Shown here piece after piece: positions 6,058 to 58,981 of a stretch of DNA of 64,000 nt (position 1 is its first letter; every line of letters begins with the position of its first letter). Location: the NCBI GenBank assembly GCA_030065825.1, contig JASJCY010000029.1, positions 2,548 through 66,547 of the forward strand. Reading direction: 5' to 3'. The stretch comes from Nostocaceae cyanobacterium. Lineage in GTDB: Bacteria > Cyanobacteriota > Cyanobacteriia > Cyanobacteriales > Nostocaceae. The notes under the pieces are model-generated. The model saw only the letters and a list, made by a program, of their open reading frames with translations, did no database searches and was not told the DNA's origin. The position numbers and the translations under genes were made by a program.

Positions 6058-6450
6058 GGGTCCGTACCGGTTTCGACAGGTTGGCGAAAGCTTCTCTGTG
6101 ATACAGGTCGAGAGTGAGTCGTCTCTCGCAAATCAAAGACTCAAAAAAATAGTAACTGCGAACAACATCGTAGCATTCGCTCGTAAGCCTGTTGCAGCTA
6201 TTGCATAGGTCTAAAAATCTCTTATAGATTCGAGCCTCCGTAGTTTGACTCCGTTAAGGACTATGGTGCAACCCCCAACGGATGCTCTAGTACGCGCCTC
6301 TGGTTCGCATACTAGCTAAGACTTAACCAGAGCATCCTAGCGTTCGGGATAATGAACGTTCCCCGCCTCTAGGGTAAAAGAGGCTAAACCTGTGAATGAG
6401 CGGTGGGTCAATACCCAGTCTGGACAGCAGTTCGACTCTGCTCGGATCCA
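6058..6450 (+). ncRNA. ssrA: tmRNA (SsrA), one-piece
   Basis: 5' GGGUCCG pairs with 3' CGGAUCC, including a G3:U pair. The T-arm is GCAGTTCGACTCTGC. The resume codon GCG is at 6158. The tag ORF reads ANNIVAFARKPVAAIA and ends with TAG at 6206-6208. CCA is not encoded. Confidence 0.93.
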
Positions 6451-6539
6451 TTTAATAATTTTTGTTAAATCCACTTGACATTTGTGTGTTGGGTGGGTTT
6501 TGGTTTTGGGGAGAGGAAACTTGGAAGATTTATACCAAC

Positions 6540-44366: not shown

Positions 44367-45074
44367 ATGATTGAGAAACCATCCTCAGAGATAAAATACT
44401 TTGCCGTGCTGATTAGTTTACTACGTGATCGGCAAATATTTCTAGAGGAAATTCGCCAGGAAATCAGATTACCAATTAAAATCATTTCCTTATTAGTGTG
44501 TAGTTCCTTATTTCTGGCTATTTATGGAGGTATAATTGGTGCTTTTCATAGCTGGATGCAAGCTTTTTCTTCCGCAGTTAAACTACCAGCACTATATTTA
44601 ATTACCCTCTTGATTTGTCTACCGACATTGTACTTTGCTAATATCATTTTTGGTTCCAAACGAACATTTCCTCAACATTTTGCTTTAGTACTAACAGCAC
44701 TTGCAATCACCAGTGTGTTGTTATTTAGTTTTGCACCCATCACGCTGTTCTTTATGCTGAGTACCAACAATTATCAGTTCTTAATTTTGTTGAATGTCAT
44801 CATTTTTTCTGCAACTGGTTTTGTAGGAGTTTCAGCCTTATATAAAGCCACAACCATAGTTTTAGAACAGGATGGTGAAGGCATAGATAACCGGAGAAAA
44901 CTTATCCGTTCTTGGTTATTTCTTTATGCTTTTGTAGGTAGCCAATTAGGATGGACACTCAGACCTTTTTTTGGTACACCAAACTCCCCATTTCAACTAT
45001 TTCGAGAAAAGGAAGGCAACTTTTATATGAGTATTATTCAAGCTTTAGGTTACCTATTTGGAATTAGAAACTAG
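44367..45074 (+). CDS. Conserved multi-pass membrane protein (paralog 1 of a tandem pair)
   Basis: 235 aa with about 5 TM segments. It shares LLRDRQ.FLEEIRQEIRL...FGSK...RSWLFLYAFVG.QLGW.LRPFFG...F.LFRE..GNFY with the next gene. Confidence 0.7.
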   Translation: MIEKPSSEIKYFAVLISLLRDRQIFLEEIRQEIRLPIKIISLLVCSSLFLAIYGGIIGAFHSWMQAFSSAVKLPALYLITLLICLPTLYFANIIFGSKRTFPQHFALVLTALAITSVLLFSFAPITLFFMLSTNNYQFLILLNVIIFSATGFVGVSALYKATTIVLEQDGEGIDNRRKLIRSWLFLYAFVGSQLGWTLRPFFGTPNSPFQLFREKEGNFYMSIIQALGYLFGIRN

Positions 45075-45275
45075 TAGGGGCGCAATGCTTGCGCCCAATA
45101 GTTATCAATTAGGAATTAGTAGGGGTACAATGCTTGCGCCCAATAGTTATCAATTAGGAATTAGGAATGATGAATTAAGAATTAGTAGGGCTACAATCTT
45201 TGCGCCCAATAGTTATCAATTAGGAATTAGTTATCAATTAGGAATTAGGAATGAATTAGGAATTAGGAGTTAGAA
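45075..45275. repeat. ~52-bp tandem repeat x3 carrying GTAGGGGCGCAATGCTTGCGCCC palindromes plus AATTAGG heptamers
   Basis: Seen directly. The ORF at 45058-45273 is a repeat artefact. Confidence 0.9.
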
Positions 45276-45365
45276 ATTAACTTTTTTCATGTTTGTAAGT
45301 CTAGGTAAAATTCAAATAGTTTGTCAATTCATTTACAATTCTCACAAATATAAATTTAAATCCCT

Positions 45366-46079
45366 ATGTTAGAAAAAAAATCAAAATCCCAAGGTATTCA
45401 ACATTTTGGTGTTCTCCTCAATTTACTACGCGATCGCCAAGGTTTTCTAGAAGAAATTCGCCAAGAAATACGATTACAAAATAAAACCACTTCTCTCTTA
45501 GTTTCCAGTTCCATATTCTTTGCTATTTATGGGGCAATTATTGGTGCATCTAATAGTTTACCCCAGGCATTATCTAGTGCAATAAAAATGCCTGCATTCT
45601 ACCTCTTAACCCTGATAATTTGTTTCCCAACCTTGTTCTTTTTTAATGTCTTATTTGGTTCCAAAAGTACTGTTCAACAACATTTTGTAGTTCTACTCAC
45701 AGCAGTATCGGTAATTAGCGTTTTACTATTTAGCTTTGCACCAGTAGCACTCTTCTTTTTAATCACTACCCCCGATTCCTATCAATTTTTCAAGATTTTA
45801 AATGTCTTGATTTTCGGAATCACAGGTTCTTTTGGAGTGAAGTTTTTATATGATGGAATGCAGTTACTATCACAACAAGATGAAGTCGGTAAAGGTACTC
45901 GCACCACAATTTTAAGATCCTGGTTATTTCTATATGCTTTTGTAGGTATGCAATTGGGATGGTTTCTCAGACCATTTTTTGGCGCACCAGATAACAAATT
46001 TGAATTATTTCGAGAAGTTCAGGGAAACTTTTATCTTGATATCGTATCAGCAATTTCAGAAATTCTAGGTTTTCGTTAA
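45366..46079 (+). CDS. Conserved multi-pass membrane protein (paralog 2 of the tandem pair)
   Basis: 237 aa, colinear with the 44367-45074 product. Confidence 0.7.
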   Translation: MLEKKSKSQGIQHFGVLLNLLRDRQGFLEEIRQEIRLQNKTTSLLVSSSIFFAIYGAIIGASNSLPQALSSAIKMPAFYLLTLIICFPTLFFFNVLFGSKSTVQQHFVVLLTAVSVISVLLFSFAPVALFFLITTPDSYQFFKILNVLIFGITGSFGVKFLYDGMQLLSQQDEVGKGTRTTILRSWLFLYAFVGMQLGWFLRPFFGAPDNKFELFREVQGNFYLDIVSAISEILGFR

Positions 46080-47150
46080 TTGAATGGAAAAATAAAGAAC
46101 TAATAATCAATTAATTAATTTGTAGGGTGTGTTATGCCATAAGCTAACGCACCTTGAATTATAATTTTAGTTATATAAATGTGCATCACCATAACACACC
46201 GGAATGCACCTCCCTAAAAACGGGGTTTATTGGGAATATTGACGGTTTCGACCTGCTTACCCTCGAATCGTGCAAGATATGACCTAAATAACCCACCCTA
46301 CTTTTGGTTAATTGAATGGAAAAATAAAGAACTAATAATCAATTAATTAATTTGTAGGGTGTGTTATGCCATAGGTTAACGCACCTTGAATTATAATTTT
46401 AGTTATATAAATGTGCATCACCATAACACACCGGAATGCACCTCCCTGAAAACGGGGTTGATTGGGAATATTGACTGTTTCGACCTGCTTACCCTGGAAT
46501 CGTGCAAGATATGACCTAAATAACCCACCCTACTTTTGGTTAATTGAATGGAAAAATAAAGAACTAATAATCAATTAATTAATTTGTAGGGTGTGTTATG
46601 CCATAAGCTAACGCACCTTGAATTATAATTCTAGTTATATAAATGTGCATCATCCTAACACACCGGAATGCACCTCCCTCAGAGACCGGGTTTATTGGGA
46701 ATATAGACCTGTCAAAACCCTAATTTTTCCTTCATAAACCCGGTTTCTAACCCAGGTGCAAGATGTGTGTTACGCTAAAGTGATAACATACCCTAGTTTT
46801 ATAACTATAGCTATATCGATACCTATGACTAAGTTTTCGTCAATAGAATGGGAAAATAAAAAATTAATAATCAATTAATGAATTTATAGTAGGGTGTGTT
46901 ATAAAGTAGGCTAACGCACCTTGAATTTTCATTATATAAATGTGCGTTACCTCATATCTTGCACCATTCTCAACAAAATCAAAAAAACCGGGTTTCTAAA
47001 CGAAAAATTAAGGTTTTGAGACTGAGAGATTTGCAAGAAACCCGGTTTTTAGTCCAGGTGCAAGATGTGCGTTACGCTAAAGCGATAACGCATCCTACTT
47101 TTCTAGTTTTCTAGGTTTTGGTTAATTAAATGGAAAAACAAATAATTAAT
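46076..47150. repeat. 232-bp tandem repeat (3 near-identical units at 46076, 46308 and 46540, plus 2 degenerate units), each unit embedding MITE-like sequence
   Basis: The TTAATTGAATGG register has a period of exactly 232. Unit 1 starts inside the last codons of the upstream gene. The units contain GTAGGGTGTGTTA...TAACGCACC and ...CGTGCAAGATATGAC. Confidence 0.92.
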
Positions 47151-47236
47151 CATGCATAAATTTATAATGCTGTATTGCTATCTGTTTATATCCAAATTCG
47201 ACCAGGGGACAGTACCACTTTACATCTACCACAGAG

Positions 47237-49357
47237 TTAATTAGCAACGTCAAAATTCTTATACTCTCTAATGTACTTAAATGGAAAAGGGATTACGGTA
47301 CTTTGTCCGGTGCGGACAAAATCAACATCCATAGTTGGAAGAAGTTGTCTAAAAATTAGCTTTGATCCTTTCACCGCAGCAATTCTACGGACATGACATG
47401 CATCCTTGAAAGAAAATTGTACATTTTCTCTTCTTCCTCCAACAAAGTAATAAGCTTCTTCTTCAGTTTCGCTGAAATATTTTATGTTGAGAGAAGCATC
47501 GAATAAATCTTCAAGGGTTTCTTTCTGTTTTGGAAAACTCAGTCTAATTTGATGTTGATTAACAAGATATTCTCTAAATTCTCTTGCTACTTTTGTAGTT
47601 TTTCCCAGTTTATTATTTAAAAGTATTCGGAATCTCTCTTTGTCTAATTCACTGTTCCCTAATCTTTGCAATTCATCAAATAAAGCTACAAGTTTATCAC
47701 TATCTTCCTGAAAATAATCAGTCATGAATTCTTTGATTAAGTTTGCCAAATCACTTCCAGTTTGTTTGTTTTGGGGAAGATCCATTTTGACTTCCTTAAT
47801 AATATCTTCAATTTTATCAAGGTTAGGAATAGTGACTTCATCGGTACGAAATATCCGATTTATATCACCTGTATTTGACTCAACTAGTCCTTCCAAATTT
47901 TTAAGTTTCTTGCCAGATTTATCATCTATCATTAAGTCTATATATTTTTGAAATTCTTGATAGTTAAATAAATTTTGCTCATGTATCTGATGACATTCAA
48001 AACTACCATCAGGTTGAATTTCCATAAAAACAACATGTTCTGCATCTTCATCCCAAGCAGCAAAAGTCCACATTCCTTTTAATTGAAGGTTATTCCAATC
48101 AAAAAGGTTAAATTTGCCATGACTAATATCACGTTTTATCAATAATTCCTTAAGGATTGTTTTTAGGACAGCGTCGGATGTCGTTTCGATAGATTCAATT
48201 GTAATATGCTGTCGATAAGTTTTCTTTGTTGAAGGACGATACTCATCATCTAGCTTCATCCTCTCATAATAATCAGCATCGTGAATAATTCTCAAGTTCA
48301 AAGCACCATCTTTATCACGTTTTCTACAAGTAATATTTTTTTTCTCTGTCACATATTGAGGATGGAGAAATGTTTTGATTTGAGTGACCAAATCACGAGA
48401 TTCTTCATTGTTTACTGTATCTACTATATTAATTAGCTCTCCATCTAGTAGTGAACGAAGTTTTTCTGGTTTTTGAAGTAAAGTGTTATTGAGTTCGATA
48501 GTATCTTCAATTTCAAGGGTGGATAACTTAACATCCATGTACTTTGATAAATCTGCTTGAATTGTCGATATAAGTTTATGTAAAATACCTGCACGACTTT
48601 TCTCAAAATTATCAGTACTGCTAAAATCAAGAAATTGCTTAGATGCTTTTTTACCTTTTAAACCGCATTTAATATATCTTGAGTTTAACTCAACTTCCCC
48701 ATCACGCTGTAAAAAATATCTCCGCAAGCTTCCAGTTGAAGCTTCAAATATATACTTAGGCTTTTCAAGAGCATTTTGGAGTTGTTGCTTACGTTTGGAA
48801 TCACTAGTCTTTTTGAGTTCTGAACGAATCGAAATTTCCGTTCGGTAACGAACAGTTTCTACTTTGAGGAAGTATTCAGATGTTAAAGTTATTTTCGCAA
48901 TATCAAGATAGGCTTTATTTTTACCTTCAAAATCTGGGACAAGTAACAATGAACCAGTTAAATTAGAGTAATTAAACTTAGCAAAACGTGATTTGGAGGA
49001 AGATAGTGAATTCAATAAAATCTGACCTAACCATGCTTCACAAATGCACTCTTCAGACTTGTCGCATATAGCTTTCGGAACAACTTCAATAACAGCATTG
49101 TCATCGAATTCTTTGTTATTTCTAATGTTGTGAAGAAGTTGATAAACATCAATTGGTTTGTTGAACATAGCATAGGCATATTTCTCATCCTGAGACATGA
49201 CAGCAGCAGCATTGAAATCTTGACCAATAAGATAATCTAATTCTGCTGCTCCATACCAGTTTTTGTTGCTATCACGAGTCAAACGAATAAAAGCAAAGTC
49301 TTCTTTAATAGCGTCAATATTAAAATTGATTTCCAGACGGTTTGTAAAAATGGTCAT
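47237..49357 (-). CDS. 706-aa protein of unknown function, Argonaute-sized; candidate DdmE/pAgo-like or pPIWI-RE-like partner of the upstream helicase-nuclease
   Basis: A long clean ORF in very AT-rich DNA. Its ATG overlaps the helicase stop (ATGA at 49354-49357). I recognise no catalytic motif. The functional call rests on size, gene order and a C-terminal ...TVIPFPFKYIREY segment. Confidence 0.55.
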   Translation of the reverse strand: MTIFTNRLEINFNIDAIKEDFAFIRLTRDSNKNWYGAAELDYLIGQDFNAAAVMSQDEKYAYAMFNKPIDVYQLLHNIRNNKEFDDNAVIEVVPKAICDKSEECICEAWLGQILLNSLSSSKSRFAKFNYSNLTGSLLLVPDFEGKNKAYLDIAKITLTSEYFLKVETVRYRTEISIRSELKKTSDSKRKQQLQNALEKPKYIFEASTGSLRRYFLQRDGEVELNSRYIKCGLKGKKASKQFLDFSSTDNFEKSRAGILHKLISTIQADLSKYMDVKLSTLEIEDTIELNNTLLQKPEKLRSLLDGELINIVDTVNNEESRDLVTQIKTFLHPQYVTEKKNITCRKRDKDGALNLRIIHDADYYERMKLDDEYRPSTKKTYRQHITIESIETTSDAVLKTILKELLIKRDISHGKFNLFDWNNLQLKGMWTFAAWDEDAEHVVFMEIQPDGSFECHQIHEQNLFNYQEFQKYIDLMIDDKSGKKLKNLEGLVESNTGDINRIFRTDEVTIPNLDKIEDIIKEVKMDLPQNKQTGSDLANLIKEFMTDYFQEDSDKLVALFDELQRLGNSELDKERFRILLNNKLGKTTKVAREFREYLVNQHQIRLSFPKQKETLEDLFDASLNIKYFSETEEEAYYFVGGRRENVQFSFKDACHVRRIAAVKGSKLIFRQLLPTMDVDFVRTGQSTVIPFPFKYIREYKNFDVAN

Positions 49358-52300
49358 TTGTGAAATTCCTTCAAAATAAATGTAAGTGCTTCATCGTCAA
49401 CTTTATCATTTTTACACAGATAAGGTACTTCAATGATTTTCCTGTCAGATGAGATATATGGACGAAAAATTGTATTTGAACTACCAAGAATATTGATGAT
49501 AAAAACTCTCTCTGCTTTAACATCAGTTATTTTTTCACGGATTTTTTGAATTTCTTTATTAGCGGGTACTTTAACCTGATCATTCCAAAATTTGAAATCT
49601 ACATAAATGTTCTCATCCGTTTTAAAGTCAAAGCATTCAAATTCGTCTACCCCTAGTTCTAGCAGCTTAATCTTTAAGTACTTTTCCAGAATATGTTTTC
49701 CACAAACTTCACCTAATACTCCTTTATAAATATTATTGAAAATTGGGGGTGTTAACATAAGTTCTGATTCAGGAAATGTTGTTGCCCAGCCAGAATCAAG
49801 GAACAATTTATGTAAGATATCAATTCTCATCAAATCTGTAAGACGAGCGCTTCGTTCACTCACTTCTTTGACTTGTTTTTTACCATATTCTTCAGAGAAG
49901 AAAACTTCAATTTCTCTATAGTCATTTGTCTCTGAATAAAGATATGAACAGCCTGGTTTTGGCAATTTGAGATAAATATTATTCCAGTTTGGATTGCATT
50001 CTGTTTCTTTTGCAATCACAGGTTGACGGAGAACTTGTTTTCTCAGTCCTTGCCATTCTTTAACACTCTGAGGAGTCCATGGTGTATTCAATTGACGACG
50101 TATGTAAGCAGAAATGTGATTACTTCTTCTGGATGCACAATTTTGTAGTTCTCTTAAATCGTCGGATTCGTTTGTTGATTTTTCAACTGATTCAAGAAGA
50201 GCAGTATATTCACGAACAGGAATTACATCCTCTGGCAAAGAAAATCCAGCTAAGTGTTTTCGGATTGAAGCATCAGCAAGAATATGAATTGTTGGAGATT
50301 TCATATTAGTTCGGCATATGCGACCTATTGCCTGAATGATTACTTTATTCAAGTAGCGTGAATAAGCATTGGTATTATATAAACTGCTAAAATCCTTATT
50401 TTTATTAGTGTTTCTTCCTACATAACGCTGACAACAATTCTCTAACTTACTTTTAAAGTTACTTCGTGAAATCGCTCCATTTTCAACTAAAAATTCTAAT
50501 TGAAAAAGGTATTTGATAAAATTTTCATCATCAATGGTATCACTGTAAATATTAACAAGTAAATTTGTTGGTTTATCCAGATAAATTCCGTTTATATCCA
50601 TATTTTGATGCTTTGGTAAGCCATTAATATGTATTCGTTCTATAGAAGATGGAATAGGGAATTGTAGATTTTGCCCAACTCCAGTTGTTTGATATGAAGA
50701 GATAATAAATCGACGTTGATTATCTTTCAAGTCATTGAGCAATTGTTTTTTATTTGCCTCAAATTCATCTCCACTAAGCACAACAATCATATCAATATCT
50801 TTCTTATCATTTAATAGTAATTCAGCGTACTTATATAATATATCTAAATCGAACTCTGAATCTCCAGACTTTGGTAATTTGTTAAACAGGCAAAGAAACC
50901 CATGACAATCAGGATGGTCGAGAAAATATTTCCATACAGTTAGCAGTCTTACATAACGACAAAACAAAAATTTAATATAGTTTTTATTATCGTCTTTGAT
51001 TCTATATTGAAGAGTGTTCCATAGGGAATTAGCTGCTGCTTTGTCATTAAAAACTTCCTCAAGTTGTTTGATTGCTTCCTCCTGTAAATCCGTTCCAATA
51101 AATTCAGTTTTGATATCGACTTGACTATACCCTTGAGTTCTTTGAGAATATTCATCCTTGAGATGAACAAGAGCATCATCTTTAATCCGTATAAATGAAT
51201 CTCCCAAACGGGATTTCAAATATTCAATATCATAATTTCCAATGTTTGTATTAAGTCCAGCAGTCGCAGAAATTCCCACAACCATAGCTTTTGAACAGAC
51301 TCCAATCAAAAAAGATTCGGGTGTACGGTTGAACTTAAACATATATATCTTCGACAAGGTATCATGCTCATCACTATCGACGATATCGTAGTAACTAAAG
51401 CCTGTATCATAAAACCCCTGACGTTGGATTGTTAATCTGTCTGTTTGCAGTCCATAAGGTAAATCACCTTCAAGAATGTTATTGGTCAAAAATTCAATAT
51501 CTTTACTATCAAGACGAAAATGATTAAGAACTGTCTTTACAGCAGATTCGAGGGGAAAAATTTCTTCAACACTGTCATCTTCGTCTTTCAAATGGCAATA
51601 GTTCTCGGCTAAATACCCAATTCCTATCTGAAAGTAGGTCAAAAATCCGGCAATATCCCTTAGCAATGAGTAAAGGTTGACACCAGTTTTTTCTATTTTA
51701 GTATCAACAGGTTTAATCCAATTTATACATTTTTTTAAATCTTCAATAATATTGATTTGCTGATGACGGTCTAATACATTATGGAATTCATAATCATAGA
51801 ATAAAAAGTTTCTTTTATTTGTCGAAAAGTCTTCATGTGATTTACATGTATGCTGTAATCTATATGTGTTAAATATGTAATCAGCTTTATCTCGGAAGGA
51901 TTTAATCTGTTCTTGTAGGGTTAGCCAGTTCTTTCCTAAAGATTTTTGCTTTCGCCATTTGGATTCTTTCAATAGTGCTTCAGGACATTCATTTTGCATC
52001 AAATGGTTATGAATGTTCAAGAATAAATCAAGAATATCCACCCGATGCCGTAACCCTGATTTAATGATATTATTGAGGACAGCTTCTTTGGTAGTGTCAA
52101 ACTCATCAATAAAAATAAGTGATTTATTAATTAACCGTTCATAAAAGTAATACGATGGTTCAACAAGTGTGGTATTTTTAGCCACGAACTTATCTATACT
52201 CAGAAACAAAACGGTTTTCTCATCTGTAAATACTGCGGGATAGAGTTTTCCAATCCATTGATACTCTTGATTAGTCTTTATGGCTGACAGACGGTCTTTT

Positions 52301-52722
52301 TTCGTTTGAAAATTTTCGTCTAATACTTTTTTGATAGATTTTCGGAATGTTGGTTCAAGATTTTCCCGAATTTCCGTTTCAATCTTATCTCTCAATGTTT
52401 TTGGAATTTGACTATTTTCGACAATTTCTATATAAGATTTTAATTGGGAATAAACTTCTGTCTGAAAATATTCTGGAATTTCATCATCTACTGCCAGTAA
52501 TTGCTTAACAACATTCTCATAATTAGAATTAATAAAAAGTACATGTTTTTCAAAAGCATCTTCATTACCATCAGCAATAAAGTGGTTCCTTAACTCATCA
52601 ATCGGCAAATTTTTCTTGAGATTGGTCAGAACAATAATCTTTCTTTTTTGAGCAGCAAATTCCCGGTAATTAGAATAGATAAATTTGATGACATTATATG
52701 TTTTTCCAAAACCAGTAGGCAT
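49354..52722 (-). CDS. SF2 helicase (DinG/XPD-like motif layout, no Fe-S cysteines) fused to a C-terminal PD-(D/E)xK-like nuclease motif; candidate DdmD-like defence helicase-nuclease
   Basis: Motif I is PTGFGKT at residues 2-8. Motif II is IDEFD at 205-209. Further motifs are GISATAG (III), TTGVGQNLQ (V-like) and QAIGRICR (VI). The C-terminal segment GEVCGKH...FDFK...IYVDFKFW covers residues ~1001-1046. The annotated Met sits directly on the P-loop (see findings). Confidence 0.7.
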   Translation of the reverse strand: MPTGFGKTYNVIKFIYSNYREFAAQKRKIIVLTNLKKNLPIDELRNHFIADGNEDAFEKHVLFINSNYENVVKQLLAVDDEIPEYFQTEVYSQLKSYIEIVENSQIPKTLRDKIETEIRENLEPTFRKSIKKVLDENFQTKKDRLSAIKTNQEYQWIGKLYPAVFTDEKTVLFLSIDKFVAKNTTLVEPSYYFYERLINKSLIFIDEFDTTKEAVLNNIIKSGLRHRVDILDLFLNIHNHLMQNECPEALLKESKWRKQKSLGKNWLTLQEQIKSFRDKADYIFNTYRLQHTCKSHEDFSTNKRNFLFYDYEFHNVLDRHQQINIIEDLKKCINWIKPVDTKIEKTGVNLYSLLRDIAGFLTYFQIGIGYLAENYCHLKDEDDSVEEIFPLESAVKTVLNHFRLDSKDIEFLTNNILEGDLPYGLQTDRLTIQRQGFYDTGFSYYDIVDSDEHDTLSKIYMFKFNRTPESFLIGVCSKAMVVGISATAGLNTNIGNYDIEYLKSRLGDSFIRIKDDALVHLKDEYSQRTQGYSQVDIKTEFIGTDLQEEAIKQLEEVFNDKAAANSLWNTLQYRIKDDNKNYIKFLFCRYVRLLTVWKYFLDHPDCHGFLCLFNKLPKSGDSEFDLDILYKYAELLLNDKKDIDMIVVLSGDEFEANKKQLLNDLKDNQRRFIISSYQTTGVGQNLQFPIPSSIERIHINGLPKHQNMDINGIYLDKPTNLLVNIYSDTIDDENFIKYLFQLEFLVENGAISRSNFKSKLENCCQRYVGRNTNKNKDFSSLYNTNAYSRYLNKVIIQAIGRICRTNMKSPTIHILADASIRKHLAGFSLPEDVIPVREYTALLESVEKSTNESDDLRELQNCASRRSNHISAYIRRQLNTPWTPQSVKEWQGLRKQVLRQPVIAKETECNPNWNNIYLKLPKPGCSYLYSETNDYREIEVFFSEEYGKKQVKEVSERSARLTDLMRIDILHKLFLDSGWATTFPESELMLTPPIFNNIYKGVLGEVCGKHILEKYLKIKLLELGVDEFECFDFKTDENIYVDFKFWNDQVKVPANKEIQKIREKITDVKAERVFIINILGSSNTIFRPYISSDRKIIEVPYLCKNDKVDDEALTFILKEFHK

Positions 52723-52850
52723 ACTCAGGAGAAGGAGTCCAGAATTATATTGTTTACAATATTATTTTAATATTTCTTCCATATTTTTTATAACCTTAGT
52801 AAAGTTTAAATCTGAAATAATTACCCCAATAATTAGGGAAAAACTGCCAT

Positions 52851-52859
52851 ATAATAGCA
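52851..52859 (-). promoter_or_regulatory. Possible extended -10 element (TGCTATTAT) upstream of the helicase operon
   Basis: The minus strand reads ...AAAATTTGTGCTATTATATGG. The element lies ~70 nt upstream of the ATG at 52782. No convincing -35 element was seen. Confidence 0.3.
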
Positions 52860-52956
52860 CAAATTTTCTGTTTCGGCTTCAGGTTCAGGGAAAAAAAACA
52901 AAAAACTGAAGCGAAATCGTTACCCAGGATGAAGCAACATATTATATCTCCTGAAG

Positions 52957-53068
52957 CTACTCCCCTCCCGCTAGAAGATTACCGAATTGAGTGAGACTAA
53001 CAAGAGGGGGAAGAGGGGCAAGAGGGGGAGAAATTTTTATAGGTAATCTTAGAACGAGAAGGGAGTAG
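52957..53068. mobile_element. MITE-like element (inverted sibling of 18828-18941)
   Basis: TIRs are CTACTCCCCTCCCGCTAGAAGATTACC / GGTAATCTTAGAACGAGAAGGGAGTAG. It aligns near-identically to the reverse complement of the copy at 18.8 kb. Confidence 0.8.
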
Positions 53069-53132
53069 TCAAGATTTATAGGAGATTATTGATTATTTTG
53101 CTCGTAGAAATATTGATGCTGGAGAACCTTTT

Positions 53133-53179
53133 GTTAACGCACCTTGAATTATAACTTTAGTTATATAAATGTACGTTAC
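53133..53179 (+). repeat. Solo copy of the 'TAACGCACCTTGAATTATAA(C/T)TTTAGTTATATAAATGT' segment that recurs in the 232-bp repeats left of the island
   Basis: It is in the same orientation as the copies at 46143-46190, ~46375, ~46607 and ~46910. Confidence 0.8.
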
Positions 53180-53229
53180 TTTTAGTAGGTTGAATTTTAT
53201 TGCTGATTTAATTATGTAAAATTAAACCT

Positions 53230-53829
53230 TCAACTATTTTCTACTGTTATTTGTTGACAAGGACGGAACAGTCGCATATAAAAATACCCCGTTAAATAAA
53301 CAAAATTAACTGCTATCAATAATCCTTTAGTAATCCAAGATTGCTGTAGGGGAAATACATAAAGAGTTGCAACTAAAACCAACAGCTTTTCAATTAAAGA
53401 CACAACCCTACCATGATATTTGGGATTCCAATAGGAAATCGGACTAATAAAACGATAATGACTAAAGGGGAAAAAATGTCTATGTGCATCGTCATTATGT
53501 ACAGGAAAATCAAATACAGAATGCACTAAGGCACTAATCCCAATAATTTCTAAATACCAATAACCCAAATAATGAGTAATCAAAATGCCAATCAAAGCTA
53601 ATGGAATCGAGTGAAAACCATGGGTAATATTTTGCCAAAATGGATGATAGTAAATATTAGACCAAATTTTCTGTTCCGGTTGACGACAGATGAATTTTGC
53701 CCAAAAATACATCACAAACATCGGCATATCTGGTAACAATGCACCGACAACTATAGGTAAAGTAGCTGTCGGATGCTGTTGTGCTGTCAAAATCGCCAGG
53801 TTAAGGATAGCGTGACTGGGGGTGTTCAT
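53230..53829 (-). CDS. His-rich integral membrane protein, possibly a membrane-bound metal-dependent hydrolase (DUF457/YdjM-like)
   Basis: 199 aa with about 5 TM segments, an N-terminal MNTPSHAILN and the segment HSVFDFPVHNDDAHRHFFP. Confidence 0.45.
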   Translation of the reverse strand: MNTPSHAILNLAILTAQQHPTATLPIVVGALLPDMPMFVMYFWAKFICRQPEQKIWSNIYYHPFWQNITHGFHSIPLALIGILITHYLGYWYLEIIGISALVHSVFDFPVHNDDAHRHFFPFSHYRFISPISYWNPKYHGRVVSLIEKLLVLVATLYVFPLQQSWITKGLLIAVNFVYLTGYFYMRLFRPCQQITVENS

Positions 53830-53977
53830 ATTGGATAATTTATCTTGTTCACCTCCATTAGTTTACACTTTGTAATAGTGCTTGACTATGCAAAAGAAAC
53901 CGCGTTTCTTTGAAATTTAAGACTCAAAGATACCCAACTAATAGAAACCTAGTTTCTTATATAATTGCTAGAAAAGA

Positions 53978-54919
53978 TTATTTCCAGCGATTTCTCCCAT
54001 CTAAAAATTTCAACTGTCTATACAAACAACCAATCAACGGTAAATTGACACCTGCTGCTTGCGCTTTTCTCAAAGGATTACCCACAATTGCTTCGACTTC
54101 CAAGGGACGGTGTTCGTCATAATCAATTTTCATACTGGTGCGGTAAGGCTTCATTTTTACAGTGTAATCAAGCATCATTTCAATGAAACCAACAGAGATA
54201 ATACGTCCCCCACTTTTTGCACCTAACGCAACTTCATACATTAACTGTTCCACTAATTCACGAGTGTGAACATCTGCCATTAACTCATCTGTTGTAGCGT
54301 CAAGAATTACAGATAACCCATTGTAGGGAATATTCCACACTAACTTTTGCCAACGTCCTAATAGTAAATCCTCAGCTAATTCTATCCTAACCCCCGCAGT
54401 TTCAAAGTCCTTTTGTATTTGCTGCATTCTTTGGGTAATTCCCACGGGATAATAATCAACAGCATATTCTCCCAAAGTAATTTGTCCATAGTCTAAATGG
54501 CGAATATGTCCTAATCCTACTTTATTAGAACACAAAAAACACAACCCACCCATGACGCGATTACTACCAACAATATTCGCAACTTCTTCCTCAATTCCTA
54601 GTCCATTTTGTAATACCAATACCACCCCATCATCCTTAACCACAGACGGTAACATTTGCGGTAGTAAATCGTTTTGTGTCGTCTTGAATGCGACTATCAC
54701 CACATCACATTTTGGCATTTTCGCCACATCACAGTAAGCCTTAACTTTGGGAAGGGTAAAATCACCATCTTTCGAGTCAATAATTAAACCATTTTTAGTT
54801 ACATGTTCATAATCACGACGTAGTAAAAAATGAACATCAAATCCCCCTTTTTGCAACTTCGCACCGTAGAAACCACCTAAAGCACCAGTTCCTAAAATTG
54901 CATATTTGTAATTAGACAT
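53978..54919 (-). CDS. panE: 2-dehydropantoate 2-reductase (ketopantoate reductase)
   Basis: The N-terminus is YAILGTGALGGFYGAKLQKGG (Rossmann fold), followed by an ApbA/PanE-type core and C-terminal domain. The ATG at 54919 is preferred over 54943. Confidence 0.85.
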   Translation of the reverse strand: MSNYKYAILGTGALGGFYGAKLQKGGFDVHFLLRRDYEHVTKNGLIIDSKDGDFTLPKVKAYCDVAKMPKCDVVIVAFKTTQNDLLPQMLPSVVKDDGVVLVLQNGLGIEEEVANIVGSNRVMGGLCFLCSNKVGLGHIRHLDYGQITLGEYAVDYYPVGITQRMQQIQKDFETAGVRIELAEDLLLGRWQKLVWNIPYNGLSVILDATTDELMADVHTRELVEQLMYEVALGAKSGGRIISVGFIEMMLDYTVKMKPYRTSMKIDYDEHRPLEVEAIVGNPLRKAQAAGVNLPLIGCLYRQLKFLDGRNRWK

Positions 54920-55037
54920 AACCAAAACAAAAGATTTCAACAATAAAGTATAATAATTTTTTACCCTTATACTAAAACAACTTGATATACCTCCGTTAAA
55001 TTACATGCGGAAATAAACACAACTATATTAGGAAAGT

Positions 55038-55153
55038 CATATCTTGCACCACCCTAAGAAACCGGGTTTATTGATAATCACTAACTGAAAAACCTTAATT
55101 TTTGGTTGATAAACCCGGTTTCTCTGCGCTTGTTGCAACTGGTGCAAGATGTC
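55038..55153. mobile_element. MITE-like element, CATATCTTGCACC family
   Basis: TIRs are CATATCTTGCACC / GGTGCAAGATGTC, with internal AAACCGGGTTT...AAACCCGGTTT inverted repeats. Confidence 0.8.
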
Positions 55154-55377
55154 AGGAAACGTAAATAACCCTGAAACCTTTACCAATGACATAGCTTGCT
55201 TCTCGCATGATTGCGAGTGTGACAAATGACGACCCTAAAAGCGTTCGCTTTATTTGTACCTACCTACTTATTCATATAAATTATTAATAACTTCCTGGTT
55301 CAAGATTGATAATTTATCTCAATTTGTTTAAAGACTAAAATAAAAATTATAATATATTTAAGTTATCAAATTACGTA

Positions 55378-55707
55378 ATGCTAGACTTAAATTACTTAGC
55401 TGAGTTTTCCCGTACCAACTGCGTTGCTATTTGTGCATTCCTGGTACCAGCTAATTTACTTGCTACACTATTAACGATGATTCTAACTGGAATTTGTCGT
55501 CCATTATATCAAATCTGGCAAGCCGCAGTCATCGCTAGCTTTTTTGCTTTTGTGATGATGTTACATGTCTACAGCTGGTTTGCAATTGGTGTAGTCATGC
55601 TTCCCACATATATTTTGCTATCCCTAGCAATCACCTGCGTTTTAATTAATTTAGGAGCAATCTTCTATCACAAACACTACCTAAATAACCCTACTTTTGG
55701 ACAATAG
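55378..55707 (+). CDS. Hypothetical small membrane protein (3 TM segments)
   Basis: 109-aa hydrophobic ORF. No family recognised. Confidence 0.45.
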   Translation: MLDLNYLAEFSRTNCVAICAFLVPANLLATLLTMILTGICRPLYQIWQAAVIASFFAFVMMLHVYSWFAIGVVMLPTYILLSLAITCVLINLGAIFYHKHYLNNPTFGQ

Positions 55708-55870
55708 AACGATTATAAGTAAAACTTTTTGGTGATATCAAATTCGACTGATTACTTATATAATTAGCACTTGCTGGTAAATGGTAAAGGATAAATGCTA
55801 AAAGGTGAAAATAAAACGATACTGAGTTTATCTTTCCCAAAACACACCAGTTCATATAATGGGTAATTAG

Positions 55871-56047
55871 ATGTAGGTTGGGTTACTCTGCGAGAAGCCG
55901 CACTCAAAGAGAAGCCACGACCTGTCTTGCGCGTCTACATGCTACCCCTCCGGGGAAGCAAGCTACAACCCAACAACCGCAACCGATTGCGTTGGGTGGA
56001 GGGGCTAGGAAATTTCAACACTTCCAAGACTTTTGTCAGTCAACCAG
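55871..56047. mobile_element. MITE-like element (TTGACTGACAAA family) lacking the left TIR, flanked by a 35-bp perfect direct repeat
   Basis: The direct repeat CCCAAAACACACCAGTTCATATAATGGGTAATTAG occurs at 55836-55870 and 56048-56082. The right arm is identical in orientation to the copy at 16428-16605, but the internal segment is inverted. Confidence 0.8.
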
Positions 56048-56149
56048 CCCAAAACACACCAGTTCATATAATGGGTAATTAGTCGGACTTGATATCAGAA
56101 AAATTTTCATTCTCCCCTTTAATTGTAAAATTTTGTTAAAATTTCCAAA

Positions 56150-56300
56150 ATCATACTTTTCTTGCCAATCTGGCTATTTGAAAGAACTGTTCTCCATCGT
56201 CAGGGAACGAGATTTTAGGGTTTACAGCAACCTATTTTATGCTATAATGATGCTATCCGTTGTCTTTTCCTGCCATTTTTTATATCAAGGTTTCGTGACA
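56150..56300 (+). repeat. Copy E of the promoter-bearing dispersed repeat family
   Basis: ...ACGAGATTTTAGG-GTTTACA-N16-TATAAT...TTTTCCTGCCATTTTTTATATCAAGGTTTCGTGACA. Confidence 0.7.
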
Positions 56301-56694
56301 TAGTGAAATTATTGTTTCATGACATTTTGAACTCTTATAAAGAAACCGGGTGTTTCAAAAATAGATATAAAACTCTCTGGAGGGTGTAGAAACTGGGTTT
56401 GTTTATTTGGTATAAGCGCTTTTGTTGATTCTTTATAAAGCTTTTCACTTTTGATCAAATACAATCTTGTGTGGGATGGGCATGTCATATCTTGCACCAT
56501 TCTCAACAAACATGGAGAAACCGAGGCAGACGCTAACAGCGTCTACCCAGAGTCAAGTCTTGGTTTACTTCAGCTATTTGGGAGACTCGTAAAATGCGAT
56601 AAAAATGCATAAAACGGTACAAAATTGTTGTCTGAGTGAGGGGTGGTAAACGGTAATAGGAGTTGAACCTCCCACCCATCTTTCTAGACGTTGG

Positions 56695-58149
56695 TTAGCT
56701 CCCACTAGCCAGCTTTTTGAAAGCCTTACTTTTGGTATGCTTAGAATCAAGCCATCCAAGCTCAACAGCTTCTACCAAAGTAAACCCCAATCCTTTCAAA
56801 AAACACGCGGTGCGGCGTATTAATACTGCTTGTACTTCCTCTTTACGCATAAAGCGCGTAATATCCTTATCAGCACCACGAACAAGGATGTTCCTAGCAG
56901 CATTTAGGTCAGCCTGTAATACACCCCCAGTAAACCTGATAAAATTGTCTCCTTTCCTCGCTCCTAACAAGGTGCCAGTTACGGAGTCAACTTGCGATGT
57001 ATAACTTGGTTGAACCTCTGTGATAACTGAACCAGTCCAGTTAGCCCATTTTTGTAATGAGTCCCGCATGTAGCCTTTCATCCATGCGTTTAACTTGCGG
57101 GACATTGCTTTTGATTGACGCTTACCTTTAATAGGTTTGGTCAAATCTTCTGCAAAAACTTTTACTTGTCCTGAGAACAAAGACCTGGAAGCACTGCCAA
57201 TTAACGAAGTGATTTCTGCCTGATCTCGTCTGTAGCGTCGATTTTCAGTTTTTCTAGTTAAATTATTTTCTAAGATCCTGGCAGATTTAGCAGGGTCTGT
57301 TGTCTTATGCTTACGACTCAATGCCCAGAGCTTCCCTCTGTTACGGTTTTTAGCGGTTATGCTTAAAGATTTTCTTGAAGCAAGCTTGCCTAACCCTGCA
57401 CCGTGAACATTGCCGTCAGAATCGTAGTAAGCTTCTGTATAGCCTTTGTCGATTCCAATTGTCTTTAATTCTTTAGGGACGCTCACGGTACCGTAATTAA
57501 CTAGCATGTGAATCTCAAAACGATCTAAATCCTGATTGTGGATTAAACGAATTTGACCTTTAATTTTACGGTTAGAACGAACAATGATTCTATTCCTTTT
57601 ACCACGCTGCAAACCCGCTAGCTCTAATTGGTAAATATAACGGTCAATACGTTTGCATGTATAACCACCTTGTTGGTAAACAATTTGATTTCTTGCCCAA
57701 GAATGACCGCGCTGATATTGTTTCCTGACAATACGATGCAAAAAAGAATCAGTCAAAAACTCAGTACTAGAAAGCTTTTTATAGCAGTCTTTGCGTTTAC
57801 TTTCGTTCTCATTACCCGGATAGCGATGCCATATGTTACTACGCAAAGCTTCAATACATGCAGCTTGTTGAGCGTTAATAGCTTTAGAAACATCTGATAC
57901 TGTCCATTCCATTAGTTTTGACGGCAGTCCTAATGATTCTGGAGTCCGAAAAGCCCTTACTAGCGGGTAAGCCTTTCTCCAGTCTAAACCCCAATAGTTA
58001 ACACTTCCAAGCTTGTTATAAGTCTCAGAGCGAACAACACCTAGACGCTGCATCGTAGCCAGTAACTCAGCTTTAACATAATCTGGCATACTAGTTACAA
58101 GTAATATTTGAGTTGATATTTTGTCTGTTTTTTTGTTGCGTTTAGGCAT
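56695..58149 (-). CDS. tnpB: TnpB-like RNA-guided nuclease (IS607-associated), RuvC triad present, Zn-ribbon cysteines absent
   Basis: RuvC-I is TIGIDKGY, RuvC-II is KVFAEDL and RuvC-III is LQADLNAARNI. The segment SYTSQVDSVTGTLLGARKGDNFIRFTGG replaces the usual CxxC...CxxC. Confidence 0.8.
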   Translation of the reverse strand: MPKRNKKTDKISTQILLVTSMPDYVKAELLATMQRLGVVRSETYNKLGSVNYWGLDWRKAYPLVRAFRTPESLGLPSKLMEWTVSDVSKAINAQQAACIEALRSNIWHRYPGNENESKRKDCYKKLSSTEFLTDSFLHRIVRKQYQRGHSWARNQIVYQQGGYTCKRIDRYIYQLELAGLQRGKRNRIIVRSNRKIKGQIRLIHNQDLDRFEIHMLVNYGTVSVPKELKTIGIDKGYTEAYYDSDGNVHGAGLGKLASRKSLSITAKNRNRGKLWALSRKHKTTDPAKSARILENNLTRKTENRRYRRDQAEITSLIGSASRSLFSGQVKVFAEDLTKPIKGKRQSKAMSRKLNAWMKGYMRDSLQKWANWTGSVITEVQPSYTSQVDSVTGTLLGARKGDNFIRFTGGVLQADLNAARNILVRGADKDITRFMRKEEVQAVLIRRTACFLKGLGFTLVEAVELGWLDSKHTKSKAFKKLASGS

Positions 58150-58184
58150 TGCTCGACCTCCAATACTTTTTGTATATTATATCG

Positions 58185-58775
58185 CTACTTGTCCTTTTTG
58201 TCCGTTTCCGTAATATGGCGTTTAATTTCTTTTTCGTAGCGACGCAAAAAATATAACTTAGAGCTAAATGAATGCATAATCGCTAAAAAATCATCCATCA
58301 TTTCTTGGTGTGGCGTTTTATAAGCATTGTTAAGAACCACAATTTTGCATCGATTGAGGTTGCAAAACCACTCTACAAAGTCAAAGCCAAACCTGCATAA
58401 CCTGTCTTTGTGGGCTACAACAATTGTCTTTATCTGTGACTTGGCAACGCGCTCCATAATACTGATAAATTTTTTGCGCTTAAAATTCATTCCAGAACCA
58501 TATTCTGAGAAACATCGGCAGTTTGGATAATTTTTAGCTAAGTATTTAATCTGCGATTCTAAATCATCTTGTTGGGTTTTGGTTGACACTCTGGCGTATA
58601 AAATAACAGGTCGAATATCTTCTTGAGATATGACGCGTTCCAGCGATTTAACGGAATATCTGCGGTGTCCCCCAGGTGACTTGATGAAATCAATTTTCCC
58701 ATCGTCAGCCCACCTGCTCAAAGTTCGACGATGATATCCATAACGTTTTTGCGCTTCAATCGGAGTAAGGTACAT
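58185..58775 (-). CDS. tnpA: IS607-family serine recombinase transposase (MerR-like HTH plus resolvase catalytic domain)
   Basis: It has the HTH segment YGYHRRTLSRWADDGKIDFIKSPGGHRRY and the catalytic serine segment ILYARVSTKTQQDDLESQ. Confidence 0.88.
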   Translation of the reverse strand: MYLTPIEAQKRYGYHRRTLSRWADDGKIDFIKSPGGHRRYSVKSLERVISQEDIRPVILYARVSTKTQQDDLESQIKYLAKNYPNCRCFSEYGSGMNFKRKKFISIMERVAKSQIKTIVVAHKDRLCRFGFDFVEWFCNLNRCKIVVLNNAYKTPHQEMMDDFLAIMHSFSSKLYFLRRYEKEIKRHITETDKKDK

Positions 58776-58981
58776 AACTTGTCCAATTTATGTCGTTATG
58801 TACCATTTTAGGCTTATTTATTCTTGCCTAATCAAACGGCGTTACCATTACCTGTGGGGGAATAGCAAGAAATAAATTATCTCATATTGTGGGGTAGGCA
58901 TCCTTGCCTGCCCTCACACACAGGCAAAGATGCCTATACCACTATCAAATTTTGGGATATTTTTATTTGCAAGTCCCTGAA

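What the first reader, a model, noticed from the sequence alone, without database searches (positions are those of the whole stretch)
47237..52782. AT-rich two-gene operon: helicase-nuclease fusion translationally coupled to an Argonaute-sized unknown protein (candidate DdmDE-like / pPIWI-RE-like defence system)
Seen in sequence: there are two long minus-strand ORFs (1122 aa and 706 aa) whose stop and start overlap as ATGA at 49354-49357. The DNA is visibly more AT-rich than its surroundings. Spot counts of single 60-nt lines gave 16/60 G+C at 50341-50400 against 26/60 at 59041-59100 in murF. I saw no HIP1 (GCGATCGC) site in the insert, although HIP1 is common in flanking genes. Gene 1 has SF2 motifs I (PTGFGKT), II (DEFD), III (SAT), V-like (TTGVGQNLQ) and VI (QAIGRICR). 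Long insertions lie between motifs I-II and II-III, as in DinG/XPD helicases, but without an Fe-S cysteine cluster. It also carries a C-terminal E...D...DxK motif. Gene 2 has no motif I can name. Established knowledge: the Vibrio cholerae DdmDE plasmid-defence module pairs a ~1190-aa helicase-nuclease (DdmD) with a ~700-aa catalytically inactive pAgo-like protein (DdmE), in the same gene order. pPIWI-RE operons combine a PIWI-like protein, a DinG-type helicase and a REase-fold nuclease. Inference: this is a defence module of that architectural class acquired horizontally by a filamentous cyanobacterium. Because I cannot see sequence-level similarity, gene 2 could equally be an undescribed effector or sensor.
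Basis: partly seen in the sequence, partly recalled or inferred. Interest (0 to 1): 0.9.

Follow-up and report, generated by a model that had tools for sequence, protein, structure and literature searches.

The report
Cyanobacterial DdmDE anti-plasmid cassette, ddmD stop-mutated
The two genes are a divergent copy of the known DdmDE plasmid-destroying defence system (an Argonaute-like DNA sensor plus a helicase-nuclease), and here the helicase gene carries a premature stop codon at codon 7 that probably disables it.

Summary

- **Gene 1** (49354-52722, minus strand) is a DdmD homologue. PADLOC DdmD gives E 4.5e-46. Solved L. casei and V. cholerae DdmD give E 1e-51 and 1.4e-41. The model of an 80%-identical homologue matches DdmD at TM 0.78-0.82. 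All five PD-(D/E)xK catalytic residues are present.
- **Gene 2** (47237-49357, minus strand) is a DdmE-type ("long-C") Argonaute. A profile matches only DdmE in the PDB (6.6e-28 and 4.5e-11). The AlphaFold model's six best PDB matches are DdmE (TM 0.53-0.65). The guide 5'-phosphate pocket residues are invariant.
- **Alternative rejected:** the pPIWI-RE reading is not supported.
- **Mobility:** the unit is a compact, AT-rich 5.6-kb cassette (47235-52835) that sits in a different context in every genome examined.
- **Not new as a kind:** cyanobacterial members of this clade already appear as DdmD-like/DdmE-like pairs in a supplement of the ApsAB paper (PMC11096173).
the ancestral ddmD start is at 52782, and codon 7 is TAA in all five assemblies of this population. 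The 1122-aa ORF restarts at Met21 and lacks the strand that leads into the Walker A loop. Nothing else in either gene looks decayed, so the inactivation is probably recent.

The parts
47237..49357 (-). ddmE-like gene (706 aa): catalytically inactive long-C Argonaute, the DNA-guided sensor. Pocket residues Q383, E404, K408, K694 and E698 are present. A helical insertion lies at about residues 513-602.
   Evidence: ORF. phmmer against the PDB: L. casei DdmE 8.7e-15, V. cholerae DdmE 1.2e-4. A profile of 28 homologues matches only DdmE (6.6e-28 and 4.5e-11). AlphaFold model pLDDT 82, pTM 0.72. Foldseek top six are all DdmE: TM 0.61-0.65 for five, 0.53 for a shorter chain; Argonautes come next. 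Pocket residues are invariant in alignment A1 and correspond to Vc Q376/E401/K405/K674/E678.
49354..52722 (-). Annotated ddmD ORF (1122 aa), starting at what is Met21 of the ancestral protein. It is a DinG/XPD-like SF2 helicase fused to a C-terminal PD-(D/E)xK nuclease.
   Evidence: ORF. PADLOC DdmD 4.5e-46. PDB 9ix4 DdmD 1e-51 and 8u0u 1.4e-41. Nuclease residues E1005, E1029, D1032, D1042 and K1044 align with Vc E1059, E1082, D1085, D1100 and K1102. Helicase motif positions.
52723..52782 (-). Ancestral first 20 codons of ddmD (MEEILK*YCKQYNSGLLLLS), now cut off from the ORF.
   Evidence: Translation. Homologue N-termini. G15, L16 and L18 are invariant, and L5, C9 and L19 are at least 90% conserved, in 29 homologues.
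52762..52764 (-). In-frame TAA at codon 7 of ancestral ddmD. Close homologues read AAC GAA at codons 6-7; the window reads AAA TAA.
   Evidence: The TAA is present in all five contigs from different assemblies and samples. Those contigs are 99.98-100% identical to the window, so they represent one clonal population.
49354..49357 (-). ATGA stop/start overlap of ddmD and ddmE.
   Evidence: The same 4-nt overlap occurs in L087, L089 and L093. L086, L088 and L091 have a 2-nt gap and L090 a 1-nt overlap.
52783..52835 (-). Leader of about 53 nt that travels with the cassette. It contains TAATTATT-N4-TAATTATT.
   Evidence: blastn similarity to other ddmDE loci ends at 52791-52835 upstream and at 47235-47253 downstream. 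Alignment A2.

Best explanation
This is a horizontally acquired two-gene DdmDE cassette (47235-52835, minus strand) of a clade shared by cyanobacteria and some archaea.

**Mechanism, inferred from the solved V. cholerae and L. casei systems.**
1. The DdmE-like long-C Argonaute holds a short single-stranded DNA guide, with its 5' end in the MID pocket (Q383, E404, K408, K694, E698).
2. It binds complementary DNA on an invading plasmid without cutting it.
3. Through the helical insertion in its PIWI domain it recruits the auto-inhibited DdmD dimer.
4. One DdmD protomer loads on the displaced strand and translocates 5'->3' by ATP hydrolysis.
5. Its PD-(D/E)xK domain (E1005, E1029, D1032, D1042, K1044) degrades that strand, and the plasmid is lost.

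**State in this genome.** ddmD has a TAA at codon 7. The only in-frame restart is Met21. A product starting there lacks the N-terminal helix and the beta-strand that feeds the Walker A loop. The ATPase, which is essential in V. cholerae, is therefore most likely dead, and the system is most likely a recently inactivated allele.

**Shown versus inferred.** Shown: homology, fold, conserved residues, the stop codon, and mobility of the cassette. Inferred: the mechanism, and loss of function.

**Sub-confidences.** DdmDE family membership is about 0.95. 'Inactive allele' is about 0.65.
For: **Identity.**
- DdmD. The model of the 80%-identical P0122 has pLDDT 85, and its top 20 PDB matches are all DdmD at TM 0.73-0.82. 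DinG/XPD come next at about 0.3.
- DdmE.
- Functional residues: read against the mutational data in bioRxiv 10.1101/2024.05.10.593530.

**Pairing.** The pair is adjacent, in the same order and tightly coupled in all 7 other loci read. Many further contigs are shared between the two hit lists.

**Mobility.**

**Stop codon.**
- Present in all five assemblies.
- No other homologue has it. The two 'MPTGFGKT' starts elsewhere are gene-calling differences over intact upstream codons.
- The N-terminal 20 residues are conserved. In the model they form helix 2-9 and strand 15-20 at pLDDT about 90.
- The strand aligns with residues 20-26 of the solved L. casei DdmD HD1 domain, with K27 aligned to Lc K33.

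**Recency.** The window's DdmD has only 1 private change in 124 near-invariant columns, and DdmE has 0 in 84.
Against: - No experiment exists on any member of this clade.
- Identity to the characterised systems is only 17-22%. Guide type, guide length and targets could differ, as they already do between Vc and Lc.
- The lack of any other decay fits a tolerated or functional truncated allele as well as a recent loss.
- All five contigs come from one clonal population. Read-level support for the TAA was not examined.
- Absence of the DEDX tetrad in the PIWI domain was not tested rigorously here.
- The PADLOC DdmE model does not match gene 2 even at E<=1.
Confidence: 0.65

Rival explanations
1. 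The system is active. After the 6-codon remnant ORF (MEEILK*), ribosomes reinitiate at Met21, 39 nt (13 codons) downstream. The N-terminally shortened DdmD still works, or works at a reduced, less toxic level.
For: The rest of ddmD and all of ddmE are intact, with essentially no private changes at conserved sites. Walker A, DEFD, SAT, motif VI and the nuclease residues are all retained. The allele is the consensus in every assembly of this population.
Against: All of the roughly 100 full-length homologues keep the 20-residue N-terminus, with invariant G15, L16 and L18. In the model these residues form the strand that leads into the P-loop, and they align with the ordered HD1 domain of solved L. 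casei DdmD. In P-loop NTPases this strand is part of the core sheet (established knowledge). There is no ATG, GTG or TTG between the TAA and Met21.
Confidence: 0.2
2. The TAA is a systematic sequencing or assembly error. In the organism the gene is an intact 1142-aa ddmD, and the system is a normal active DdmDE.
For: All contigs come from one clonal population, probably sequenced with one technology. No reads were inspected.
Against: The same two adjacent substitutions (AAC GAA -> AAA TAA) appear in five contigs from different assemblers and samples: NCBI MAG GCA_029976255.1, GCA_013332805.1, two ENA assemblies, and a Logan assembly of SRR11343830. A substitution error in a non-homopolymer codon is unlikely to recur in this way.
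Confidence: 0.08
3. The pair belongs to a different helicase-nuclease plus Argonaute-like family, either pPIWI-RE or ApsAB, rather than DdmDE.
For: The overall logic is the same in all three. The ApsAB paper shows ApsA-like and DdmD-like helicase-nucleases forming one broad superfamily, and cyanobacteria also carry ApsAB-like pairs.
Against: - No pPIWI_RE Pfam model matches at E<=1, and helicase and nuclease are fused.
- ApsA-like proteins are about 1300-1450 aa, with Walker A near residue 220. Here Walker A is at residue 27 of about 1145.
- The ApsB motif Y-x3-K...QG...K is absent.
- That paper itself labels partners of this clade as DdmE-like: WP_127055915.1 = P0177, and partners of P0041 and P0109.
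- Only DdmD and DdmE match in the PDB.
Confidence: 0.02

Closest known systems
Lactobacillus casei DdmDE (PDB 9ix4, 9iw3, 9ixm; bioRxiv 10.1101/2024.10.09.617351)
   Same: This is the closest solved relative of both proteins. DdmD: E 1e-51, TM 0.78. DdmE: profile E 6.6e-28, TM 0.65. Gene order and sizes match (1192 and 715 aa). The helicase has the same Insertion and Arch domains, the same C-terminal PD-(D/E)xK domain, an inactive pAgo with a helical insertion, and the Walker A lysine a similar distance from the N-terminus (Lc K33 against K27).
   Different: Identity is only about 18-22%. The host phylum differs. Here ddmD is interrupted at codon 7. Guide preference is unknown; Lc accepts both 5'-P and 5'-OH guides of 14-21 nt.
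Vibrio cholerae DdmDE (VC1771/VC1770; PDB 8u3k, 9ezy, 9bgk)
   Same: Both proteins are homologous. DdmD: 1.4e-41, TM 0.80. DdmE: profile 4.5e-11, TM 0.63. All five nuclease residues and five of the six named MID-pocket residues are conserved, as is the Walker A lysine whose mutation (K55A) abolishes plasmid elimination.
   Different: Identity is about 17-19%. Vc DdmD has about 28 more residues before Walker A. The Vc system lies in a pathogenicity island with other defences, whereas here it is a solitary cassette among ordinary genes. The PADLOC DdmE model, built around Vibrio-like sequences, misses this gene. The equivalent of Vc Y363 is ambiguous (Y364 or Y373).
Cyanobacterial DdmD-like/DdmE-like pairs listed in Supplementary Data 8 of the ApsAB paper (PMC11096173)
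   Same: They are the same clade. WP_127055915.1 (Trichormus) is P0177, 58% identical to the window's DdmD. WP_017296086.1 (Geminocystis) is P0217. The Nodularia and Sphaerospermopsis entries are the neighbours of P0041 and P0109.
   Different: Those entries are only catalogued; they are uncharacterised and annotated 'hypothetical protein'. None of the full-length members carries the stop codon.
ApsAB (E. coli ST38 anti-plasmid system)
   Same: A helicase-nuclease plus an Argonaute-like partner with anti-plasmid activity. ApsA and DdmD fall in one PSI-BLAST superfamily.
   Different: ApsA is larger, with Walker A at 218-222. ApsB lacks PIWI and PAZ and has a Y-x3-K...QG...K motif that is absent here.
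pPIWI-RE operons
   Same: A PIWI-like protein is associated with DinG-type helicase and restriction-endonuclease-fold functions.
   Different: Helicase and nuclease are separate genes in pPIWI-RE and fused here. No pPIWI_RE Pfam family matches either protein at E<=1.

Membership tests
DdmDE | Two adjacent, co-oriented genes in the order ddmD then ddmE | tested here: met
   ORFs 49354-52722 and 47237-49357 lie on the minus strand with a 4-nt overlap. The same order holds in 7 other loci.
DdmDE | DdmD: DinG/XPD-like SF2 helicase with Insertion and Arch domains, fused to a C-terminal PD-(D/E)xK nuclease, homologous to solved DdmD | tested here: met
   PADLOC DdmD 4.5e-46 over profile positions 239-1148 of 1190. 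PDB DdmD 1e-51 and 1.4e-41. The model of 80%-identical P0122 has all top 20 Foldseek hits as DdmD at TM 0.73-0.82.
DdmDE | DdmD nuclease catalytic residues (Vc E1059, E1082, D1085, D1100, K1102) | tested here: met
   E1005, E1029, D1032, D1042 and K1044 align with them.
DdmDE | Intact DdmD ATPase core (Walker A lysine with its preceding strand, and Walker B) | tested here: not met
   GFGKT and DEFD are present. However, a TAA at codon 7 separates the first 20 codons, which encode helix 2-9 and strand 15-20, from the ORF. This bears on function of this copy, not on ancestry.
DdmDE | DdmE: long-C pAgo fold (N, L1, small PAZ analogue, L2, MID, PIWI with helical insertion) | tested here: met
   The top six Foldseek hits are DdmE over the full length, with E 2.6e-31 to 1.2e-21 and TM 0.53-0.65. 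Canonical Argonautes reach only TM 0.28-0.35. Five helices at 513-602 lie inside the C-terminal domain. The profile matches only DdmE in the PDB.
DdmDE | DdmE MID pocket for the guide 5' end (Vc Y363, Q376, E401, K405, K674, E678) | tested here: met
   Q383, E404, K408, K694 and E698 align and are invariant in 28 homologues. The tyrosine equivalent is ambiguous: either invariant Y364 or Y373.
DdmDE | PIWI domain without the DEDX catalytic tetrad | tested here: inconclusive
   No invariant acidic residue lies in the first PIWI strand (430-436; only W430 and F432 are invariant). The only invariant acidic residues after 420 are E489, D679 and E698. No residue-level structural superposition on an active Argonaute was made.
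DdmDE | DNA-guided plasmid elimination | not testable with these tools
   This needs expression and plasmid-loss assays.
pPIWI-RE | PIWI-RE module with separate DinG-type helicase and REase genes, recognised by the Pfam pPIWI_RE models | tested here: not met
   No pPIWI_RE family matches at E<=1 for either protein, and helicase and nuclease are one polypeptide.
ApsAB | ApsA of about 1300-1450 aa with Walker A near residue 220; ApsB with Y-x3-K...QG...K and no PIWI fold | tested here: not met
   Walker A is at residue 27 of about 1145 aa in full-length homologues. The motif is absent. A PIWI-containing DdmE fold is found. The paper's own table labels this clade's partners DdmE-like. ApsA and ApsB sequences were not compared directly.

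The most novel reading that the evidence does not exclude
The cyanobacterial/archaeal clade could be a functionally distinct DdmDE subtype. It is about 20% identical to the studied systems and is invisible to Pfam, NCBIfam and the PADLOC DdmE model. It might have its own guide or target rules in polyploid, plasmid-rich cyanobacteria. On this reading, the stop-codon allele fixed in this population is a natural, selected switch-off that permits plasmid carriage, or leaves DdmE acting alone as a guided DNA binder, rather than neutral decay.
Probability: 0.12. Interest if true: 0.55.

Novelty: new member of a known kind. Interest (0 to 1): 0.3.

Why it matters
**Annotation gap.**
- RefSeq/PGAP calls both genes 'hypothetical protein'.
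- Pfam and NCBIfam give no hit.
- PADLOC finds only DdmD.
- DdmDE is therefore likely under-counted in cyanobacteria and archaea.
- The DdmE-like family is large: 994 clusters at 50% identity with E<=1e-3.

**Practical interest.** DdmDE-type systems remove plasmids, so they are plausible barriers to genetic manipulation of filamentous cyanobacteria. Knowing which strains carry intact or broken copies is useful.

**A ready-made comparison.** The single-codon inactivation in an otherwise pristine cassette is a natural loss-of-function allele. Comparing it with a repaired version would be a clean first test of this clade.

**Limits.** None of this changes the current picture of how such systems work.

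Tried and rejected
- **pPIWI-RE and ApsAB membership.** Both rejected.
- **Empty-site comparison.** I fetched 80 genome loci carrying the neighbouring 199-aa gene. None has ddmDE beside it, but synteny around that gene is not conserved at all. Only Calothrix rhizosoleniae shares a second neighbour. No true empty site could be shown.
- **Promoter and terminator scan.** It found no more sites than in shuffled sequence, so it is uninformative.
- **Rfam.** Nothing was found on the flanking repeat region. Over the whole window only tmRNA was found.
- **Viral contigs.** No DdmE relative.
- **PLSDB plasmids.** One hit, Nostoc sp. UHCC 0926 plasmid pn2.
- **Flanking-repeat core in JGI metagenome contigs.** No match.
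- **Defence island in the window.** No neighbour hits PADLOC, apart from a weak HTH match of the IS607-type recombinase.
- **Shorter homologues starting at MPTGFGKT.** I considered whether P0147 and P0153 show that Met21 is a natural start. Their DNA has intact upstream codons, so they are gene-calling differences.
- **HIP1 absence as evidence of foreign origin.** Not significant for the insert alone.

Full report
**Observation.**

The two minus-strand ORFs are real: 49354..52722 (1122 aa) and 47237..49357 (706 aa). Their stop and start overlap as ATGA at 49354-49357.

The pair has G+C 0.325 against 0.405 for the rest of the window. It is the lowest 5.5-kb stretch of the window.

No HIP1 site lies in the pair. 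Only 2.4 are expected there, so P is about 0.09. The HIP1-free gap is in fact 13.6 kb wide, 45431-59053. HIP1 absence is therefore not specific to the insert.

There is no cysteine between motifs I and II, so there is no Fe-S cluster.

**What gene 1 is.**

- PADLOC's DdmD model matches at E 4.5e-46 over residues 171-1091.
- phmmer against all PDB chains finds only DdmD: L. casei 9ix4 at 1e-51 and V. cholerae 8u0u/9bf1/9ezx at about 1.4e-41.
- An AlphaFold model of the 80%-identical full-length homologue P0122 has pLDDT 85 and pTM 0.85. Its 20 best PDB matches are all DdmD chains (TM 0.73-0.82). DinG and XPD follow at TM about 0.3.
- The C-terminal alignment places E1005, E1029, D1032, D1042 and K1044 opposite V. 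cholerae E1059, E1082, D1085, D1100 and K1102. Alanine substitution of each of those abolishes plasmid elimination (bioRxiv 10.1101/2024.05.10.593530).

**What gene 2 is.**

Pfam, NCBIfam and PADLOC give nothing. Plain phmmer already finds L. casei DdmE (9iw3) at 8.7e-15 and V. cholerae DdmE at 1.2e-4. A profile of 28 homologues (alignment A1) matches only DdmE chains in the whole PDB, at 6.6e-28 and 4.5e-11.

The AlphaFold model has pLDDT 82 and pTM 0.72. Its six best PDB matches are DdmE over the full length, with E 2.6e-31 to 1.2e-21 and TM 0.53-0.65. Human Ago2, MpAgo and AfPiwi follow at TM 0.20-0.35.

The residues that hold the guide's 5' phosphate and Mg2+ in V. cholerae DdmE are Q376, E401, K405, K674 and E678. 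They align with Q383, E404, K408, K694 and E698. All five are invariant in A1. The tyrosine partner is either invariant Y364 or Y373; the alignment does not decide.

Five helices at 513-602 sit inside the PIWI-like domain. The solved systems have their DdmD-binding insertion at that place.

I did not rigorously test for absence of the DEDX tetrad. No acidic residue is invariant in the first PIWI strand.

**The missed feature: a stop codon in ddmD.**

Homologues are about 1145-1150 aa and begin MEEILNEYCKQ..GLLLLSMPTGFGKT. In the window the same frame reads MEEILK*YCKQYNSGLLLLSMPTGFGKT. The ATG is at 52782 and a TAA lies at 52764-52762. Close homologues have AAC GAA where the window has AAA TAA.

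The TAA is present in all five contigs retrieved from different assemblies and samples. Those contigs are 99.98-100% identical to the window, so this is one clonal population.

Among about 100 full-length homologues, none other is interrupted. Two that appear to start at MPTGFGKT have intact upstream codons and are gene-calling differences.

The lost 20 residues are conserved: G15, L16 and L18 are invariant. In the model they form helix 2-9 and strand 15-20 at pLDDT about 90. The strand aligns with residues 20-26 of the solved L. casei HD1 domain, just before its Walker A K33. In P-loop NTPases that strand is part of the core sheet (established knowledge). The Walker A mutant K55A of V. cholerae DdmD is inactive.

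I therefore infer that a Met21-start product is probably ATPase-dead and the system non-functional.

Everything else looks pristine. The window's DdmD has one private substitution in 124 near-invariant columns, and DdmE has none in 84. Both values are within the range of the other sequences. So the loss is recent, or the allele is tolerated. I cannot distinguish these two.

**Mobility and context.**

- Nucleotide similarity to seven other ddmDE loci spans window 47235-52835 and stops there. That is the two genes plus a leader of about 53 nt.
- The flanks differ in every case:
  - Scytonema: NACHT/CHAT/TIR and ParB genes.
  - Synechocystis sp. PCC 7509: Cap2/JAB and Mrr.
  - Methanoperedens: integrase, UvrD-PDDEXK and SLFN genes.
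  - Gloeotrichia: housekeeping genes.
  - Nostoc sp. UHCC 0926: a 292-kb plasmid.
- The cassette is 7-12 G+C points below its flanks in six of the seven.
- None of 80 genomes with the neighbouring 199-aa gene has ddmDE beside it. Synteny there is too poor for a true empty-site test.
- In this window the cassette is solitary. Neighbours are a PanE reductase, small membrane proteins and CorA, and none hits PADLOC.

**Comparison with what is known.**

DdmDE was defined in V. cholerae and solved for V. cholerae and L. casei. The L. casei paper still describes the system as found in Vibrionaceae and Lactobacillaceae.

The ApsAB paper (PMC11096173) assembled a broad ApsA/DdmD superfamily. Its Supplementary Data 8 lists cyanobacterial proteins with 'DdmE-like' partners. 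By accession these are members of the present clade: WP_127055915.1 is P0177 and WP_017296086.1 is P0217. The Nodularia and Sphaerospermopsis entries are the neighbours of P0041 and P0109.

Cyanobacteria also carry a separate ApsAB-like family of about 1300 aa, which is not this one. The pPIWI-RE and ApsAB membership tests fail.

The DdmE-like family as a whole is large: 994 representatives of 50%-identity clusters at E<=1e-3, and 745 at E<=1e-10.

**Verdict.**

It is a new, uncharacterised member of a known kind whose clade is already catalogued.

Two additions are new here:
- Solid homology for gene 2, which standard annotation resources miss.
- The codon-7 nonsense mutation, which probably makes this particular copy non-functional.

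Interest is modest, at 0.3.

Noticed in passing
window 46070-47165 and 53133-53179: A 232-bp tandem repeat (2.8 copies at 95% match, then degenerate copies) fills the gap between the 237-aa gene and the ddmE stop. A 47-nt core of it (GTTAACGCACCTTGAATTATAAYTTTAGTTATATAAATGT...) recurs once, in the same orientation, upstream of ddmD. The cassette is therefore bracketed by direct copies. Copy number differs between assemblies. There is no Rfam match, no match in JGI metagenome contigs, and no match in the other ddmDE loci.
   Followed up: partly
window 52815-52838 (minus strand): The roughly 53-nt leader that moves with the cassette contains TAATTATT-N4-TAATTATT within a small hairpin-like element. 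It is partly conserved upstream of ddmD in Scytonema and Synechocystis sp. PCC 7509. It may be a promoter or operator.
   Followed up: no
window 44367-45074 and 45366-46079; repeats 45062-45280: Two paralogous 235-aa and 237-aa multi-pass membrane proteins have no Pfam or PADLOC match. They are separated by AATTAGG heptamer (STRR-like) and 45/66-nt tandem repeats.
   Followed up: no
window 56695-58775 (minus strand): An IS607-type pair lies next to murF, about 4 kb from the cassette. It consists of a serine recombinase with an HTH (196 aa) and a TnpB/Cas12f-like protein (484 aa).
   Followed up: no
window 45431-59053: A 13.6-kb stretch has no HIP1 (GCGATCGC) site, where about 7 are expected (P about 0.0009). 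It is much wider than the ddmDE cassette and includes apparently ordinary genes such as panE.
   Followed up: partly
proteins P0288, P0294, P0299 and many others (not in the window): A subgroup of DdmE-like proteins of about 600 aa matches the profile in two stretches. It skips roughly positions 530-620, the helical insertion that contacts DdmD in solved complexes. These may be DdmE relatives with a different partner.
   Followed up: no
L089 (Methanoperedens contig JAIOIS010000048.1) 10001-15579; P0099/P0230 (Methanolobus): DdmD and DdmE are 58% and about 48% identical to the cyanobacterial proteins in archaea, including a record labelled as a Methanoperedens plasmid. They sit beside integrase, UvrD-PDDEXK and SLFN-like genes. 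This indicates recent cross-domain transfer of the cassette.
   Followed up: partly
window 6058-6453: A tmRNA gene with tag peptide ANNIVAFARKPVAAIA.
   Followed up: no
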